Source of the DNA: a virus | Lineage: Duplodnaviria; Heunggongvirae; Uroviricota; Caudoviricetes | DNA: 12,053 bases | Strand: one strand, 5' to 3' | Virus record (IMG/VR): IMGVR_UViG_2850808358_000011 | Notes under the pieces: generated by a model | Databases searched by the model: none | Told to the model about the DNA's origin: nothing | The model's input: the letters and a program-made list of their open reading frames with translations, nothing else | In this document: one piece after another, positions 1 to 11,006 of the stretch | Position numbering within the stretch: the first letter of the stretch is position 1 | How the letters are laid out: each line of letters starts with the position of its first letter | Translations under genes and position numbers: made by a program

Positions 1-507
1 ATGGCATTACCGTTAAGAGATTATTATCCAGTTACCCGCGCCGCGAATTTACTTGGCTGTGAAGTGAACGATTTGTTCCACTGGGCGAGAAGGGGGTACA
101 TAGAATTATATGCGTATATTGATTCGGCTTGTGGTGTTGTTCACATACATGAGCTTGATTATTTTCTCCCATTTATTGATCAGGAGGTTAGGGGGTGGGT
201 TAAATCGTTGCAAGAAGAATCTTTACGGGCGGGACTGGATGATTTTGTGGATGAAAAAATCAACAGAATAATGGGCGTTTTTTGTAAGTTAAATTACCTG
301 AAAGAAGAAAGAATATACTTGTACTCTCTTTTGAACTTTCTGGCTAAAGGATGGGTTAATACGGGCTTCTGCTGGTTAAAAAATCTTAAACATGAAGCCC
401 AGAAGAGTGTCGAAGATGCCTATTATTTCGAGGATGTATGCGCCGAACATTCTTTTAATCGTGATAGCGAATATATTACAGAAGTGGGCGGTTTTTTTTT
501 CTATTGA
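1..507 (+). CDS. Hypothetical protein, N-terminal segment with HTH-like (excisionase/MerR-type) motif; frame ends right after a T9 tract (possibly one gene with 491..1042)
   Basis: ORF track 1..507; N-terminus YYPVTRAANLLGCEVNDLFHWARRGYI resembles a short HTH; ATG is at window position 1 so the true start may lie upstream; stop at 505-507 follows T run 492-500. Confidence 0.5.
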   Translation: MALPLRDYYPVTRAANLLGCEVNDLFHWARRGYIELYAYIDSACGVVHIHELDYFLPFIDQEVRGWVKSLQEESLRAGLDDFVDEKINRIMGVFCKLNYLKEERIYLYSLLNFLAKGWVNTGFCWLKNLKHEAQKSVEDAYYFEDVCAEHSFNRDSEYITEVGGFFFY

Positions 508-1042
508 ATCTCATAATATACTTGAAGATATTGAATTAAATGGATGTTGTAATTGTTCTGGTGAAAATTTTGAAGGTGTATATAGCGGGCTGTCTGTTTT
601 TCTTCCTCAAAGCAATAATATAAATCTAAACAAAAATAACCTGTTTTTATTCAAAGATGATTTTATCACTCTTAATGATTTCTCTTCTGAAAAAGAGGGT
701 GATACAGGAGAGCAATTGAATAAAAAATATTTATATGGCTATGATATGGAGTCAATATATATTCAATTGAACGAGAAGAATACATTCTTTCAACCCTGCG
801 ATGAGTCGATTAGTAGACAAAATGAGCATAAAAAAGAATTAAACCCTCAGCTTGATAAAAAAACGCGAGTATCCAAAGCAGAAAGAGTATTTATACAATT
901 GGCAATAAAAGAACATTACCATGAGTTTATAGACAGTCCGGGAACCATTGCCAATGTATTCACCGCCTTGTCTAAAAAGCATAAAAACCCTTTCGATTTC
1001 GATAAAAGCACCGTAGGCAGGTGGATTAAAACCGCTCGCTAA
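491..1042 (+). CDS. Hypothetical protein, C-terminal continuation in the other frame (AT-rich, N/K/E-rich, no domain recognised); the ORF track reports this frame as 392..1042
   Basis: The frame of ORF 392..1042 reads through the T9 tract; removing one T would join ...EVGGFF to SIESHNILEDIEL... giving about 346 aa; stop TAA at 1040-1042. Confidence 0.45.
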   Translation, partial: VFFSIESHNILEDIELNGCCNCSGENFEGVYSGLSVFLPQSNNINLNKNNLFLFKDDFITLNDFSSEKEGDTGEQLNKKYLYGYDMESIYIQLNEKNTFFQPCDESISRQNEHKKELNPQLDKKTRVSKAERVFIQLAIKEHYHEFIDSPGTIANVFTALSKKHKNPFDFDKSTVGRWIKTAR

Positions 1043-1079
1043 CTATTTTTTAACAATTCAGGGCTTAATAAGTCTATTT

Positions 1080-1098
1080 GAGGGCTTATTAAGCCCTC
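1080..1098 (+). terminator. Palindromic hairpin GAGGGCTTA-T-TAAGCCCTC downstream of the first gene, followed by a T-rich stretch
   Basis: Perfect 9-nt inverted repeat read directly; downstream tccttcttgctttgtg is T-rich but interrupted, so a weak intrinsic terminator at best. Confidence 0.35.
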
Positions 1099-1168
1099 TC
1101 CTTCTTGCTTTGTGCGGATTGCCTGGGGAAAAATCATTCCCGAAAAGTTCAGAGCACGGGAGAAAAAC

Positions 1169-1489
1169 ATGACTCAATCCGCATTCATTCCACCAACTCC
1201 AGAACAGCGCCGCACCATACTCGCCGAGTATGGTTTTGACTGCGAAGAACGCATCAGGGAAGAGAAGTGTAAAAAAATGACCACGCTTTCACGCTCCCGG
1301 CGCTGGGAACTGGAGAAGATCGGTGCTTTTCCTCCTCGTCACTCTTTGGGGCGTTGCTCATGTACTTGGCTGTTAAGTGATGTTTTGTGGTGGCTGCGTA
1401 ATCCGCCAGTTATTGCCAAAGTGAATAACCCATACGAAAACGCCAAAAAGAAAAGGGAGAGGGAATCCGGTAGCGCCAGAGTTGAATAA
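1169..1489 (+). CDS. AlpA-family phage transcriptional regulator (DNA-binding, excisionase-like)
   Basis: MTTLSRSRRWELEKIGAFPPRHSLGRCSCTWLLSDVLWWL matches the remembered AlpA pattern (HTH then FP-P-x-LG-x-W-x-VxxWL); RBS GGGAGA 6 nt before ATG 1169. Alternative start at ATG 1277 is possible. Confidence 0.6.
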   Translation: MTQSAFIPPTPEQRRTILAEYGFDCEERIREEKCKKMTTLSRSRRWELEKIGAFPPRHSLGRCSCTWLLSDVLWWLRNPPVIAKVNNPYENAKKKRERESGSARVE

Positions 1490-8824: not shown

Positions 8825-8862
8825 AAACGGAATCCTCCGCGAAATTATCTATTCAGGCGGGT

Positions 8863-9348
8863 GTGGCGCGAGAAAATCTTGAGCGTCTGCGGGTATTGCA
8901 TGATGAAGCGCGCATCAGGCTACTGGAGTGTCGTTATAACGCGGCAGAGGCTGGTTGTGCTTACGAAAGCATTGATAATAAGTTGCGGGCAGAGATATTT
9001 GCAAAAGCACTTCCCGAACTGATTAACGAGCTGACCCCTGTTCTGTTATTGATTCGTGGTTTATGTGAGCTGCTTGGCCAGCCGCTGTATAACGCAGAAA
9101 AGAAAATATGCGAAACACTGAAAGCGGCAGATACTGCTGAAAGTGTCGGGATGATTCGCGGCCGGATTAACGATACCGAAAGCGACACCTCCAGCCCGCT
9201 GCGTTATTGCCCGGAGAAACTCCCGGATTCAGTAAGCTGCGCAATCAGGAGCGCCCCTTCACCTGTACAATGGAGCGCGGCGCGACAGAATCCAGAAAAA
9301 ATGCGCGACCTTGCGGAGGGCAGAGAACTCTGCCGGGGGTGGCAGTAA
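8863..9348 (+). CDS. Hypothetical protein (161 aa), translationally coupled to the capsid gene; possibly scaffold-related
   Basis: GTG start 8863; stop TAA 9346-9348 overlaps ATG 9348 (TAATG); its frame is open from 8791, overlapping the end of the previous ORF. Confidence 0.45.
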   Translation: MARENLERLRVLHDEARIRLLECRYNAAEAGCAYESIDNKLRAEIFAKALPELINELTPVLLLIRGLCELLGQPLYNAEKKICETLKAADTAESVGMIRGRINDTESDTSSPLRYCPEKLPDSVSCAIRSAPSPVQWSAARQNPEKMRDLAEGRELCRGWQ

Positions 9349-10619
9349 TGAGCGGTCTGAATACTCCACATTTGCACGGCGCTGATATAGTGAGCCGACT
9401 CAGGGGATTAATGTCCCGGAATCGCCTGAAAGCAAACACAGCAAGCATAAGCGATGAGACGCGTCGCGCGCTGGACAATGAATATCAAAAACTGGAGCGT
9501 GAGCTTGAGCTTCACACCCTGCATACTGCAAGCGGTGGGGGTAATAACGACGGCATTGAGCGTTATAATTGCACTGCTGATTCTGTTGTATCACAACGAA
9601 ATCAACAGTCTCAGATGGTTTTCAATTGCGCTATCGAGTCGATAACCGGAAAGCATCCGAAGGATTTGCGCTTTTCCGGTGATACTGCGCGCTATTCGTC
9701 AGAAGTTGAACCTGTTCCTCGCCAGAGTGCAACGCTTGCCAGTGGATGGCAGGCAAATTTCCTTGCTGAAATAACTCCCGTGCCTGTTACGGATATATCA
9801 GGTCGGGTTGTGCTGGTAGACGCTTCGGGGCCGTTGGCACGTACATCGCCACCTCACGAGCGCCGTTCGCCACTACAGGCGCATTCACTGGTTTCAAGGG
9901 GCTACCGCTGCGAGCAGGTTAATTTTGATTTTGCGTTGAACTACGACAATGCCGATGCTCACGCATCCGCAAACGGCCTTGAAGGAAGTGCGCGGGCCGC
10001 TTTTGAACGCCGGAAATGGCTGGATTTAATTCAGATTGGTTTTAACGGCACACATTATGCCGCCGAATCTGACCCTGAAACATATCCGGGGCGTGACGAT
10101 TGCGGCGTGGGTTGGTTGCAGAAGTTTCGAAATGAAGCGGCGGGAAGGGTTATCAGCGGCCTTTCTGTTTCATCACCGAAAAGTAATACACGCGGTACAC
10201 ACCATACGATAGATGCGCTTGTTCTGGATGCCTGGCAATCCATGATTGATGAACAGTGGCAGGAAGGCATTGTGGCCGTATGCAGTCACAATACGCTGGT
10301 CCGTAAACAATGGCCTTTGATAAACCGTCTTGATCCATCGCAGATGAATCAGGAAATTTTGCTTAACGAGGGAATCATTAAAAATCCCGTTCTGGGGAAT
10401 CTCCCGGCTGTGACCGTTCCATTTTTCCCGGACAATGCTGTATTGATCACACCTCTTGCCAATCTGTGTCTGTACTGGCAGCGTGGTTCCGTTCGTGGCC
10501 TGGTAAAAAACGAGCCTCAGTATAATCGCCTCGCGTTCTATGAGTCCTGTAACCTTGACTGGGTGGTGGGGCAATATGAGGCAGGGTGCTTACTGGATGG
10601 GATTGACTGGAAAGAATAG
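9348..10619 (+). CDS. P2 gpN-family major capsid protein homolog (HK97 fold), with an N-terminal extension
   Basis: 423 aa from ATG 9348; motifs CEQVNFDF, GFNG, VGWLQKFRNEA, IDALVLDA, GNLPAVTVPFFPDNAVLITPLANL and a C-terminal FYESCNLDWVVGQYEAGCL match my recollection of P2 gpN (CDQINFDF, VGWLQKYRNEA, LDALVMDA, GNLPAVRVPYFP, NYESMNIDYVVEDYAAGCL). Confidence 0.75.
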   Translation: MSGLNTPHLHGADIVSRLRGLMSRNRLKANTASISDETRRALDNEYQKLERELELHTLHTASGGGNNDGIERYNCTADSVVSQRNQQSQMVFNCAIESITGKHPKDLRFSGDTARYSSEVEPVPRQSATLASGWQANFLAEITPVPVTDISGRVVLVDASGPLARTSPPHERRSPLQAHSLVSRGYRCEQVNFDFALNYDNADAHASANGLEGSARAAFERRKWLDLIQIGFNGTHYAAESDPETYPGRDDCGVGWLQKFRNEAAGRVISGLSVSSPKSNTRGTHHTIDALVLDAWQSMIDEQWQEGIVAVCSHNTLVRKQWPLINRLDPSQMNQEILLNEGIIKNPVLGNLPAVTVPFFPDNAVLITPLANLCLYWQRGSVRGLVKNEPQYNRLAFYESCNLDWVVGQYEAGCLLDGIDWKE

Positions 10620-10641
10620 CAAGGAAATTTCCGGTAACGTT

Positions 10642-10664
10642 GAGGGCTTCTCAGCCCTCCTTTT
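10642..10664. terminator. Hairpin GAGGGC-ttctca-GCCCTC followed by CTTTT, shared by the convergent capsid and toxin 3' ends
   Basis: 6-bp perfect stem 10642-10647 / 10654-10659; T-run 10661-10664; the minus-strand toxin stop is at 10663-10665. Confidence 0.5.
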
Positions 10665-11006
10665 ACTTAAGCAGATGCTCTCCACCAATCAGGGTAATGA
10701 CTCTTTCAAGCACATCATTAAATATCCCATCTTCTGCCTCTGTGATTAAGCGCGCTTTCCGCTGACGCCAGTCAAGGGTTTGAATGAGTGTGGTTGCTAC
10801 CACGCTGGGGCGTCCAGATTTGTTACCGGAACTTCTGTGGGAGCATTTCGTATGCTCGTACTTATGGGGCAGCATATGACAAGCCCGGTGAGTCGGTTAT
10901 ATTGCTCATGGGATAGTATGAGTGCCGGGCGATACTTTCCGATCTCTTTTCCTTTCTGCGGCTCAAAATCTAGCCAGCAAATATCACCACGCTTAGGTAC
11001 AAACAT
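10663..11006 (-). pseudogene. MazF/PemK-family toxin, split into two ORFs (10797..11006 and 10663..10875) by a 1-nt frameshift at a G4/C4 run
   Basis: N-terminal part GDICWLDFEPQKGKEIGKYRPALILS...CCPISTSIRNAPTEV and C-terminal part SVVATTLIQTLDWRQRKARLI...VITLIGG both match the MazF/PemK pattern; adding one C in the run at 10807-10810 gives a continuous 114-aa ORF. Confidence 0.6.

What the first reader, a model, noticed from the sequence alone, without database searches (positions are those of the whole stretch)
492..10810. Three frame disruptions all fall on homopolymer runs
T9 at 492-500, G3 at 3510-3512 and G4 at 10807-10810 each need exactly one base added or removed to restore a full-length family-typical protein. 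Three such events in 12 kb suggests either homopolymer sequencing or assembly errors, or slippage-driven decay of a domesticated element. The two cases lead to opposite conclusions about whether the element is active.
Basis: seen in the sequence. Interest (0 to 1): 0.4.

Follow-up and report, generated by a model that had tools for sequence, protein, structure and literature searches.

The report
Homopolymer assembly errors, not gene decay
The broken genes in this 12-kb phage-satellite island are almost certainly single-base sequencing or assembly errors at runs of identical bases, because other assemblies of the same DNA, identical at every other base, carry every gene intact.

Summary
T9 (492-500), G3 (3510-3512) and G4 (10807-10810) each break a gene, and one base restores a full-length protein. 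A fourth break of the same kind was missed: GG at 8818-8819 splits a 236-aa Sid-like gene. A fifth (CC for CCC) lies just outside the window in the core gene yadE.

The window comes from GenBank chromosome CP026877.1. An independent draft assembly (QWSJ01000012.1) matches it over 21,003 aligned columns with 0 substitutions and exactly these 5 one-base differences. Each is in a homopolymer. Three contigs assembled from other public read sets also show 0 substitutions and intact frames. Every other relative read is also in frame at each site it covers (13 loci in all), and each of the four truncated products looked up occurs in only one contig of the index, the source.

A true pseudogene next door, a yadG nonsense codon, is shared by both assemblies and serves as an internal control. 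The island is base-identical in chromosomes whose flanks differ by 1-2%, so it spread recently.

Best explanation: consensus errors in a long-read assembly (confidence 0.9). The element should be read as intact. It is a P4-like satellite at the 5' end of hpt. Interest is low.

The parts
492..500 (.). Site 1: T9 run, one T too many. All 8 relatives that cover it have T8.
1..1042 (+). Gene for a 346-aa hypothetical protein with no family match. In this record it is split into 1-507 and 392-1042 by site 1.
   Evidence: the 168-aa truncated product occurs in only one contig of the index
3510..3512 (.). Site 2: G3 run, one G too few. Nine relatives have GGGG. Four more distant ones have GGAG or AGAG, which are also in frame.
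3208..5876 (+). Toprim primase gene, 889 aa when repaired (906 aa if started at 3157). Split by site 2.
   Evidence: phrog_1139, 3-887 of 889 against 2-891 of 895; full-length 44-51% matches to phage primases; the 765-aa fragment occurs in only one contig
8818..8819 (.). All 11 relatives that cover it have GGG.
8639..9348 (+). Sid-like gene, 236 aa when repaired. In this record it is split into 8639-8824 and 8863-9348.
   Evidence: 61-aa fragment in only one contig; best PDB match is P4 Sid, 7jw1_E
10807..10810 (.). Site 3: G4 run (C4 on the coding strand), one base too few. All 11 relatives that cover it have G5.
10663..11006 (-). PemK/MazF toxin gene, 114 aa when repaired. Split by site 3.
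   Evidence: the 69-aa fragment occurs in only one contig
11006..11254 (-). MazE/AbrB-type antitoxin gene, intact.
1169..1489 (+). AlpA-type regulator/excisionase, intact.
1791..1985 (+). isrK (1791-1872) and C4 antisense RNA (1898-1985), upstream of the Icd-like coding part. This is a P1/P4-type RNA immunity module.
5879..6880 (+). Second tyrosine integrase, 333 aa, intact.
7127..7449 (.). Imperfect 54-nt inverted repeat. GGTTACA iterons lie on the left and TGTAACC iterons on the right of an AT-rich centre. Probably the replication origin.
   Evidence: the layout matches the PICI origins described in PMC6092414; the function is inferred
8008..8190 (+). Ogr/Delta zinc-finger late-gene activator, intact.
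9348..10619 (+). P2-family major capsid protein homologue, 423 aa, with an extra N-terminal stretch of about 120 aa. Intact.
11509..11540 (+). attR: the start of hpt. An 84%-identical copy lies about 12.9 kb upstream, outside the window, just before the 403-aa integrase.
   Evidence: L005 2718-2749 against 15631-15662

Best explanation
The frame breaks are errors in the deposited consensus sequence, not features of the organism.

The window is part of a closed 5.13-Mb chromosome (CP026877.1). A closed chromosome of that size must have been assembled from long reads; that step is an inference. At four places in the window, and at one more in the neighbouring core gene yadE, the consensus miscounts a run of identical bases by one. 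The miscounts are T8 to T9, G4 to G3, G3 to G2, G5 to G4 and C3 to C2. Gene callers then split five genes that are really intact.

Read with those five bases corrected, the window holds an intact and probably active P4-like phage satellite of about 12.9 kb, inserted at the 5' end of hpt.

Shown here: the differences are private to this assembly, consist only of indels and lie only in homopolymers. Inferred: they arose in sequencing or assembly rather than in the cultured clone.
For: 1. The draft assembly QWSJ01000012.1 (L006) aligns to the source over 21,003 columns with 0 substitutions and exactly 5 one-base indels, all in homopolymers.

2. Three contigs assembled directly from other public read sets also show 0 substitutions and the intact run lengths. 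They are SRR6049580 (11.2 kb), SRR8820628 (5.1 kb) and SRR12618175 (4.1 kb).

3. The other relatives read are also in frame at each site they cover, with 8 to 13 loci per site across the window sites (13 loci in all). They are L001, L002, L004, L007, L008, L010 and the IMG/VR loci L025-L028.

4. Four truncated products were looked up (168, 765, 61 and 69 aa). Each occurs in exactly one contig of the 153-billion-gene index, and that contig is the source. The identical integrase is found in 13 contigs and the identical capsid homologue in 12.

5. One of the five errors lies in yadE, outside the element, so the phenomenon is not specific to the element.

6. There is an internal control. The yadG nonsense codon (E112 to stop) is present in both the source and L006. 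A real lesion in this lineage is therefore shared between assemblies, and the five indels are not.

7. If 5-30% of real mutations were indels, the chance that 5 of 5 differences are indels is 3e-7 to 2e-3.

8. Four of the five events are in runs of only 3-5 bases. The longer runs in the same 21 kb (G9, a second T8 and thirteen 7-mers) are unchanged. True slippage should favour long runs, although this argument depends on the model assumed.

9. The literature reports that long-read assembly errors are predominantly short homopolymer indels, mostly deletions at runs of 2-8 bases (PMC12007338).
Against: - No reads, quality values or platform record could be inspected.
- The long runs G9 (7134-7142) and T8 (11408-11415) were read the same as in L006, which is slightly unexpected if the error rate rises with run length.
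- The neighbouring accession CP026876.1 is a Shigella boydii plasmid, and the flanks are at most 99.1% identical to any complete E. coli genome. The host is therefore probably a Shigella, a group in which real pseudogenes are common, and one (yadG) is present here.
- A test of that neighbouring plasmid for the same error profile was inconclusive.
Confidence: 0.9

Rival explanations
1. The sequenced clone really carries the mutations. Five independent slippage events occurred after it split from its near-identical relatives. Possible causes are a mismatch-repair-deficient or frameshift-prone state, or exposure to a frameshift mutagen during storage. The primase, the Sid-like gene, MazF, the 346-aa gene and yadE would then be genuinely inactivated.
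For: - Every event is at a homopolymer, which real slippage also prefers.
- The host is probably a Shigella, a group in which gene decay is common. A true yadG pseudogene lies about 4 kb away.
- No reads could be checked.
Against: - There are 0 substitutions against 5 indels in 21 kb. Even mismatch-repair mutators accumulate more base substitutions than indels (established knowledge, recalled from memory).
- Four of the five events are at runs of 3-5 bases, while the G9 run, the second T8 run and the 7-mers are untouched.
- The implied density is about 1 indel per 4 kb, or about 1,200 genome-wide, with no SNPs.
- No other assembly shares any of the lesions.
Confidence: 0.07
2. A domesticated satellite is undergoing slippage-driven decay. 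This is the reader's second alternative: the element is an inactive remnant accumulating frameshifts under relaxed selection.
For: Four of about 16 element genes are broken in this record.
Against: - The lesions are absent from every relative, including sequence-identical ones.
- One lesion of the same type is in the core gene yadE.
- The genes are under purifying selection in relatives: dN/dS is 0.12-0.15 for the primase, 0.12 for the Sid-like gene and about 0.2 for the capsid homologue.
- The element body (11,508 bp) has 0 substitutions against copies in chromosomes whose flanks differ by 1.2-2.2%, which indicates recent transfer.
- The att repeats, both integrases, AlpA and Ogr/Delta are intact.
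Confidence: 0.02
3. The breaks are regulatory. This would mean either phase variation by tract-length change, or programmed frameshifting or transcriptional slippage, most plausibly at the T9 run. RNA polymerase slippage on T9 or A-runs is known in Shigella mxiE and spa genes (recalled from memory, not checked here).
For: T9 is long enough for polymerase slippage. The run lies inside a coding sequence.
Against: - All 8 relatives that cover site 1 have an in-frame T8, with no length polymorphism.
- The other sites are runs of 2-4 bases, too short for phase variation.
- No frameshift is conserved in any homologue.
Confidence: 0.01

Closest known systems
Gene-fragmenting homopolymer indel errors in long-read bacterial assemblies (as described for the Kastor tool, PMC12007338)
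   Same: - The differences are single-base indels at homopolymers, mostly deletions at runs of 2-8 bases.
- They split otherwise conserved genes into two adjacent ORFs.
- They are detected by comparison with close references.
- They are not accompanied by substitutions.

   Different: The platform and polishing history of CP026877.1 could not be checked here. The longest runs in the region (the G9 run and the second T8 run) were read correctly.
Satellite phage P4 and the P4-like satellites (seven-component definition in PMC10085698)
   Same: - A P4-type arm-binding integrase lies next to the attachment site.
- There is an AlpA/Vis-like regulator, 32% identical to P4 ORF88.
- There is an Ogr/Delta zinc-finger activator, 37% identical to P4 Delta.
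- A C4/CI-type antisense RNA lies beside icd.
- There is a large Toprim primase.
- There is a Sid-like all-helical protein of the same length as P4 Sid.
- The element is about 12.9 kb.

   Different: - No Psu or epsilon homologue was found.
- The primase resembles P4 alpha only at motif level and instead matches primases in phage records (Escherichia phage ESSI2_ev239, 51%, and Ralstonia and Pseudomonas phage records) at 44-51%.
- The element carries its own P2-family major capsid homologue, a second integrase and a MazEF pair.
- It is inserted in the 5' end of hpt rather than in a tRNA gene.

PICI or SaPI satellites that encode a capsid-protein homologue (SaPIbov5 Ccm, PmCI172, EcCICFT073; PMC6092414)
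   Same: - The gene order int, alpA, primase is followed by an iteron origin placed 3' of the replication gene.
- A homologue of the helper's major capsid protein is present. In the named examples it is linked to small capsids or to interference with the helper.

   Different: The capsid homologue here is of the P2 (Peduovirus) type. It sits beside Sid-like and Delta-like genes, which are hallmarks of P4. Neither its function nor the helper phage was tested.

Membership tests
Long-read consensus homopolymer-indel artefact | Compared with independent assemblies of the same sequence, the only differences are one-base indels, with no substitutions. | tested here: met
   0 substitutions and 5 indels in 21,003 columns against L006. 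0 substitutions in 11,198, 5,104 and 4,134 columns against three read-derived contigs.
Long-read consensus homopolymer-indel artefact | Every indel changes the length of a homopolymer run. | tested here: met
   T8 to T9, G4 to G3, G3 to G2, G5 to G4 and C3 to C2. Chance is about 3e-4.
Long-read consensus homopolymer-indel artefact | The lesions are private to one assembly. | tested here: met
   Each of the four truncated products looked up is found in one contig only. All 8-13 relatives that cover each window site are in frame.
Long-read consensus homopolymer-indel artefact | The errors are spread over the assembly and include core genes, not only one element. | tested here: inconclusive
   One of the five is in the core gene yadE. 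Only about 27 kb of the source could be read, and the 10 kb upstream shows no split genes. The genome-wide rate was not measured.
Long-read consensus homopolymer-indel artefact | Reads or a more accurate platform from the same isolate show the other run length. | not testable with these tools
   No reads or platform metadata were available. Accession searches in the literature found nothing.
Pseudogenes of a decaying or domesticated prophage | The lesions are inherited by clonal relatives. | tested here: not met
   None of the five is shared. By contrast the yadG nonsense codon is shared by the source and L006.
Pseudogenes of a decaying or domesticated prophage | Selection is relaxed, or substitutions accumulate alongside the frame breaks. 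| tested here: not met
   There are 0 substitutions in the element against L004, L006 and L007. Among relatives dN/dS is 0.12-0.2 for the primase, the Sid-like gene and the capsid homologue; hyp346 and mazF differ too little for an informative ratio.
Pseudogenes of a decaying or domesticated prophage | Mobility functions or element ends have been lost. | tested here: not met
   The att repeats are present. Both integrases and AlpA are intact. An identical element sits in divergent chromosomal backgrounds.
Phase variation by slipped-strand mispairing | The tract is long (about 7 or more bases) and its length is polymorphic among isolates. | tested here: not met
   Only site 1 is long enough. 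It is T8 in all 8 relatives that cover it. The other sites are runs of 2-4 bases and do not vary.
Programmed frameshift or transcriptional slippage gene | The frame change is conserved in homologues. | tested here: not met
   All homologues are single ORFs of 346, 889, 236 and 114 aa.
P4-like satellite (PMC10085698) | Integrase, AlpA-type regulator and Delta are present. | tested here: met
   The Pfam domains Arm-DNA-bind_3 and Phage_integrase, Phage_AlpA and Ogr_Delta are found. BLAST identity to P4 int, ORF88 and delta is 23-37%.
P4-like satellite (PMC10085698) | Sid, the external size-determination scaffold, is present. | tested here: inconclusive
   The profile matches P4 Sid with hhalign probability 70% and E 4e-5. 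The AF2 model has pLDDT 92.8. The best PDB match is Sid, 7jw1_E, with probability 0.98, TM 0.48 and 241 columns, but E is only 0.07 and the fold is a coiled coil.
P4-like satellite (PMC10085698) | Psu and epsilon (Ash) are present. | tested here: not met
   There is no BLAST or profile match and no Pfam Psu hit.
P4-like satellite (PMC10085698) | An alpha-type primase-helicase is present. | tested here: inconclusive
   A Toprim primase of 889 aa is present, but its similarity to P4 alpha is only at motif level (E 0.002-0.02). It belongs to phrog_1139 and matches primases in phage records (Escherichia, Ralstonia, Pseudomonas) at 44-51%.

The most novel reading that the evidence does not exclude
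The isolate behind CP026877.1 really carries all five one-base changes. They would result from a burst of frameshift-only mutagenesis, through a transient frameshift-prone state or exposure to an intercalating mutagen. That burst would have silenced the satellite's primase, Sid-like scaffold and MazF toxin at once. The T9 tract could still be partly decoded by transcriptional slippage, as reported for Shigella mxiE.
Probability: 0.05. Interest if true: 0.35.

Novelty: not a real feature. Interest (0 to 1): 0.08.

Why it matters
The value is practical.

- Four pseudogene calls in this window, and one in yadE, should be treated as spurious.
- The element should be annotated as an intact, probably mobile P4-like satellite.
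- If the local rate of 5 errors in 21 kb holds across the chromosome, CP026877.1 would carry about a thousand such errors. That would inflate pseudogene counts in a lineage, probably Shigella, where pseudogene load is itself a research question.
- For the scan, the case gives a simple test to separate artefact from decay: compare with sequence-identical assemblies and count indels against substitutions. Shared lesions such as the yadG stop codon serve as the internal control.

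Tried and rejected
- **Literature search for the accessions.** Searches for CP026877, GCA_002950035, QWSJ01 and the SRA runs gave nothing on the source. They showed only that ERR048285 (L010) is S. flexneri 3a.
- **Exact-pattern scan for site 1.** A scan of the species-representative genomes for T8 or T9 at this site gave 0 hits.
- **Identifying the organism from neighbouring accessions.** CP026878 is not held. CP026876.1 is a Shigella boydii ATCC 35964 plasmid that is GenBank-only, which suggests a Shigella batch. Whether it belongs to the same assembly is unknown.
- **Testing that plasmid for the same error profile.** Comparison with three related plasmids gave 40-75 substitutions and only 3 private one-base indels in 25 kb. 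This is inconclusive.
- **Search for a Shigella genome paper.** It returned nothing specific.
- **PADLOC scan of the hypothetical proteins.** There was no credible defence hit.
- **Single-sequence AlphaFold of the 236-aa protein.** It was unusable at pLDDT 49.5. The 12-sequence alignment fixed this.
- **Invertible promoter switch at 7127-7449.** I considered that this inverted repeat next to the 333-aa integrase might be such a switch. All relatives are colinear there, and the iteron layout fits an origin better.
- **Site 2 as loss of an A.** I first read it that way from the distant relatives, which have GGAG. The sequence-identical relatives showed it is G4 to G3.

Full report
**Observation.**
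- Removing one T fuses ORFs 1-507 and 392-1042 into a 346-aa protein.
- Adding one G fuses 3157/3208-3519 and 3579-5876 into a 906/889-aa Toprim primase.
- Adding one G (a C on the coding strand) fuses 11006-10797 and 10875-10663 into a 114-aa PemK/MazF toxin.

The stretches in which one indel could restore each frame are 380-504, 3459-3516 and 10800-10896. Alignment with relatives puts each lesion on the named run.

Annotated relatives have a single 711-nt gene where the window has two ORFs, 8639-8824 and 8863-9348. The cause is GG at 8818-8819 where relatives have GGG. A fifth lesion of the same type, CC for CCC, splits the core gene yadE about 3.6 kb beyond the window.

**Source and comparators.** An exact-protein look-up places the window in GenBank chromosome CP026877.1 (assembly GCA_002950035.1, 5.13 Mb). 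Window base 1 is record base 4,311,313.

The same look-ups returned independent assemblies that carry the identical 333-aa integrase (13 contigs) and the identical 423-aa capsid homologue (12 contigs). The results against the source are:

| Comparator | Aligned columns | Substitutions | One-base indels |
|---|---|---|---|
| Draft contig QWSJ01000012.1 (L006) | 21,003 | 0 | 5 (T8/T9, G4/G3, G3/G2, G5/G4, C3/C2) |
| Read-derived contig SRR6049580 (L009) | 11,198 | 0 | 2 (the same sites) |
| Read-derived contig SRR8820628 (L011) | 5,104 | 0 | 2 (site 2, plus G10 against G9 at 7134-7142) |
| Read-derived contig SRR12618175 (L018) | 4,134 | 0 | 2 (the same sites) |

The other relatives examined are also in frame at each site they cover; with the four comparators above that makes 13 loci, 8 to 13 per window site. 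They are L001, L002, L004, L007, L008, L010 and four IMG/VR proviruses. Each of the four truncated products looked up (168, 765, 61 and 69 aa) exists in exactly one contig of the index, and that contig is the source.

**Discriminating artefact from decay.** Real slippage and sequencing error both prefer homopolymers, so the location of the lesions does not decide between them. Five other points do.
- **Indels without substitutions.** There are five indels and no substitutions in 21 kb. If 5-30% of real mutations are indels, the chance is 3e-7 to 2e-3.
- **Privacy to one assembly.** No other assembly shares any lesion.
- **A hit in a core gene.** yadE lies outside the element.
- **An internal control.** yadG carries a nonsense codon (E112 to stop) in both the source and L006. 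True lesions of this lineage therefore do appear in both assemblies.
- **Run lengths.** Four of the five events are at runs of 3-5 bases. The G9 run, a second T8 run and thirteen 7-mers in the same 21 kb are unchanged. This is not what steeply length-dependent slippage predicts, although the argument depends on the model assumed.

Long-read assemblies are documented to carry mostly short homopolymer indels, chiefly deletions at runs of 2-8 bases, and these fragment genes (PMC12007338). I therefore put 0.9 on consensus error. The platform itself was not verifiable.

**The element is not decaying.**
- In L004 and L007 the element body (11,508 bp) has 0 substitutions against the source. The flanks differ at 58-60 of 2,717 sites and at 30-64 of 5,372 sites. 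The same element has therefore entered different chromosomes recently.
- Among more distant copies, dN/dS is 0.12-0.15 for the primase, 0.12 for the 236-aa gene and about 0.2 for the capsid homologue.
- The island is bounded by a duplicated hpt 5' end, at L005 2718-2749 and 15631-15662. The second copy is window 11509-11540.
- No tRNA gene is involved.

**What the element is.** The gene order is as follows.
1. A 403-aa arm-type integrase, just upstream of the window.
2. The 346-aa hypothetical protein.
3. AlpA.
4. isrK and C4 antisense RNAs with an Icd-like ORF.
5. Small ORFs.
6. The 889-aa Toprim primase. It matches phrog_1139 over its full length and is 44-51% identical to primases in phage records (Escherichia phage ESSI2_ev239, Ralstonia and Pseudomonas phages).
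7. A second integrase.
8. An iteron-rich inverted repeat that looks like an origin.
9. Ogr/Delta.
10. The 236-aa protein.
11. A P2-family major capsid homologue, 35-39% identical to gpN-type capsid proteins.
12. MazF and MazE.

The 236-aa protein is Sid-like:
- Its profile matches P4 Sid with hhalign probability 70% and E 4e-5, and does not match Psu.
- The AF2 model has pLDDT 92.8.
- The top PDB match is the Sid chain of the P4 procapsid, 7jw1_E, with probability 0.98 and TM 0.48 over 241 columns. The E-value is weak for this coiled-coil fold.

Against P4 itself, only int, ORF88/AlpA and delta are detectably similar. By the seven-component definition of P4-like satellites (PMC10085698) this is a variant. 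It lacks Psu and epsilon and has a gpN homologue. Carrying a helper-type capsid homologue has precedents in the PICIs SaPIbov5 (Ccm) and PmCI172 (PMC6092414).

**Host.**
- The flanks are at most 99.0-99.1% identical to any of 5,426 complete E. coli genomes.
- A relative carrying the element is S. flexneri 3a.
- The neighbouring accession CP026876.1 is a Shigella boydii plasmid held only as a GenBank record.

A Shigella host is therefore likely, but this is an inference.

**Verdict.** The finding is best classed as not a real biological feature, and its interest is low. The useful outcomes are a corrected reading of the element as intact and a warning about this assembly.

Noticed in passing
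The gene it splits encodes a 236-aa all-helical protein whose best PDB match is the P4 size-determination protein Sid.
   Followed up: yes
L005 19289-20517 (about 3.6 kb beyond the window end; record 4,326,968-969): The core gene yadE is split by CC where all relatives have CCC. This is the same error type, outside the mobile element.
   Followed up: yes
L005 16987-17913 (yadG, beyond the window end): yadG carries a nonsense codon (E112 to stop) in both the source and the independent assembly L006. It is a genuine pseudogene of this lineage, consistent with a Shigella-like host.
   Followed up: partly
window 1791-1985: Rfam finds isrK (52 bits) and C4 antisense RNA (75 bits) inside the ORF called as a 175-aa 'Icd-like protein'. 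Only the C-terminal 50 residues or so match Icd, so the ORF call is probably too long. The region is an RNA-based immunity module.
   Followed up: partly
window 7127-7449: This is a 54-nt imperfect inverted repeat. GGTTACA iterons lie on one side and TGTAACC on the other side of an AT-rich centre, just downstream of the primase and the second integrase. It is probably the replication origin. The G9 run in its left arm is G10 in one read-derived contig (L011).
   Followed up: partly
window 9348-10619: The satellite encodes its own P2-family major capsid homologue. It is 423 aa, has an extra N-terminal stretch of about 120 aa and is 35-39% identical to gpN. It sits next to the Sid-like gene, where P4 has Psu. 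Its function is untested.
   Followed up: partly
window 1-11508 compared with L004 and L007: The element body is base-identical (0 substitutions in 11.5 kb) in chromosomes whose flanks differ by 1.2-2.2%. This implies recent horizontal spread to the same hpt site.
   Followed up: yes
window 1234-1933: Against L008 and L010 (S. flexneri 3a), all 96 substitutions in the element body begin at window 1234, and the 59 whose positions were printed lie in 1234-1933, which covers alpA, the immunity RNAs and icd. This points to a swapped immunity/regulation module between otherwise identical elements.
   Followed up: no
window 11509-11540 and L005 2718-2749: The island is inserted at the 5' end of hpt and duplicates its first 24 bases or so. 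No tRNA gene is involved, which is unusual for a P4-type integrase. A second pair of repeats (GTGTATCAAT..GTGTATCAATAT) lies near both ends and may be arm-type integrase sites.
   Followed up: partly
window 2667 (72-aa ORF 2573-2791): Relative L001 has an extra in-frame 12-bp tandem copy (ACATGCACATGC) here. This is natural repeat-number variation in a small ORF.
   Followed up: no
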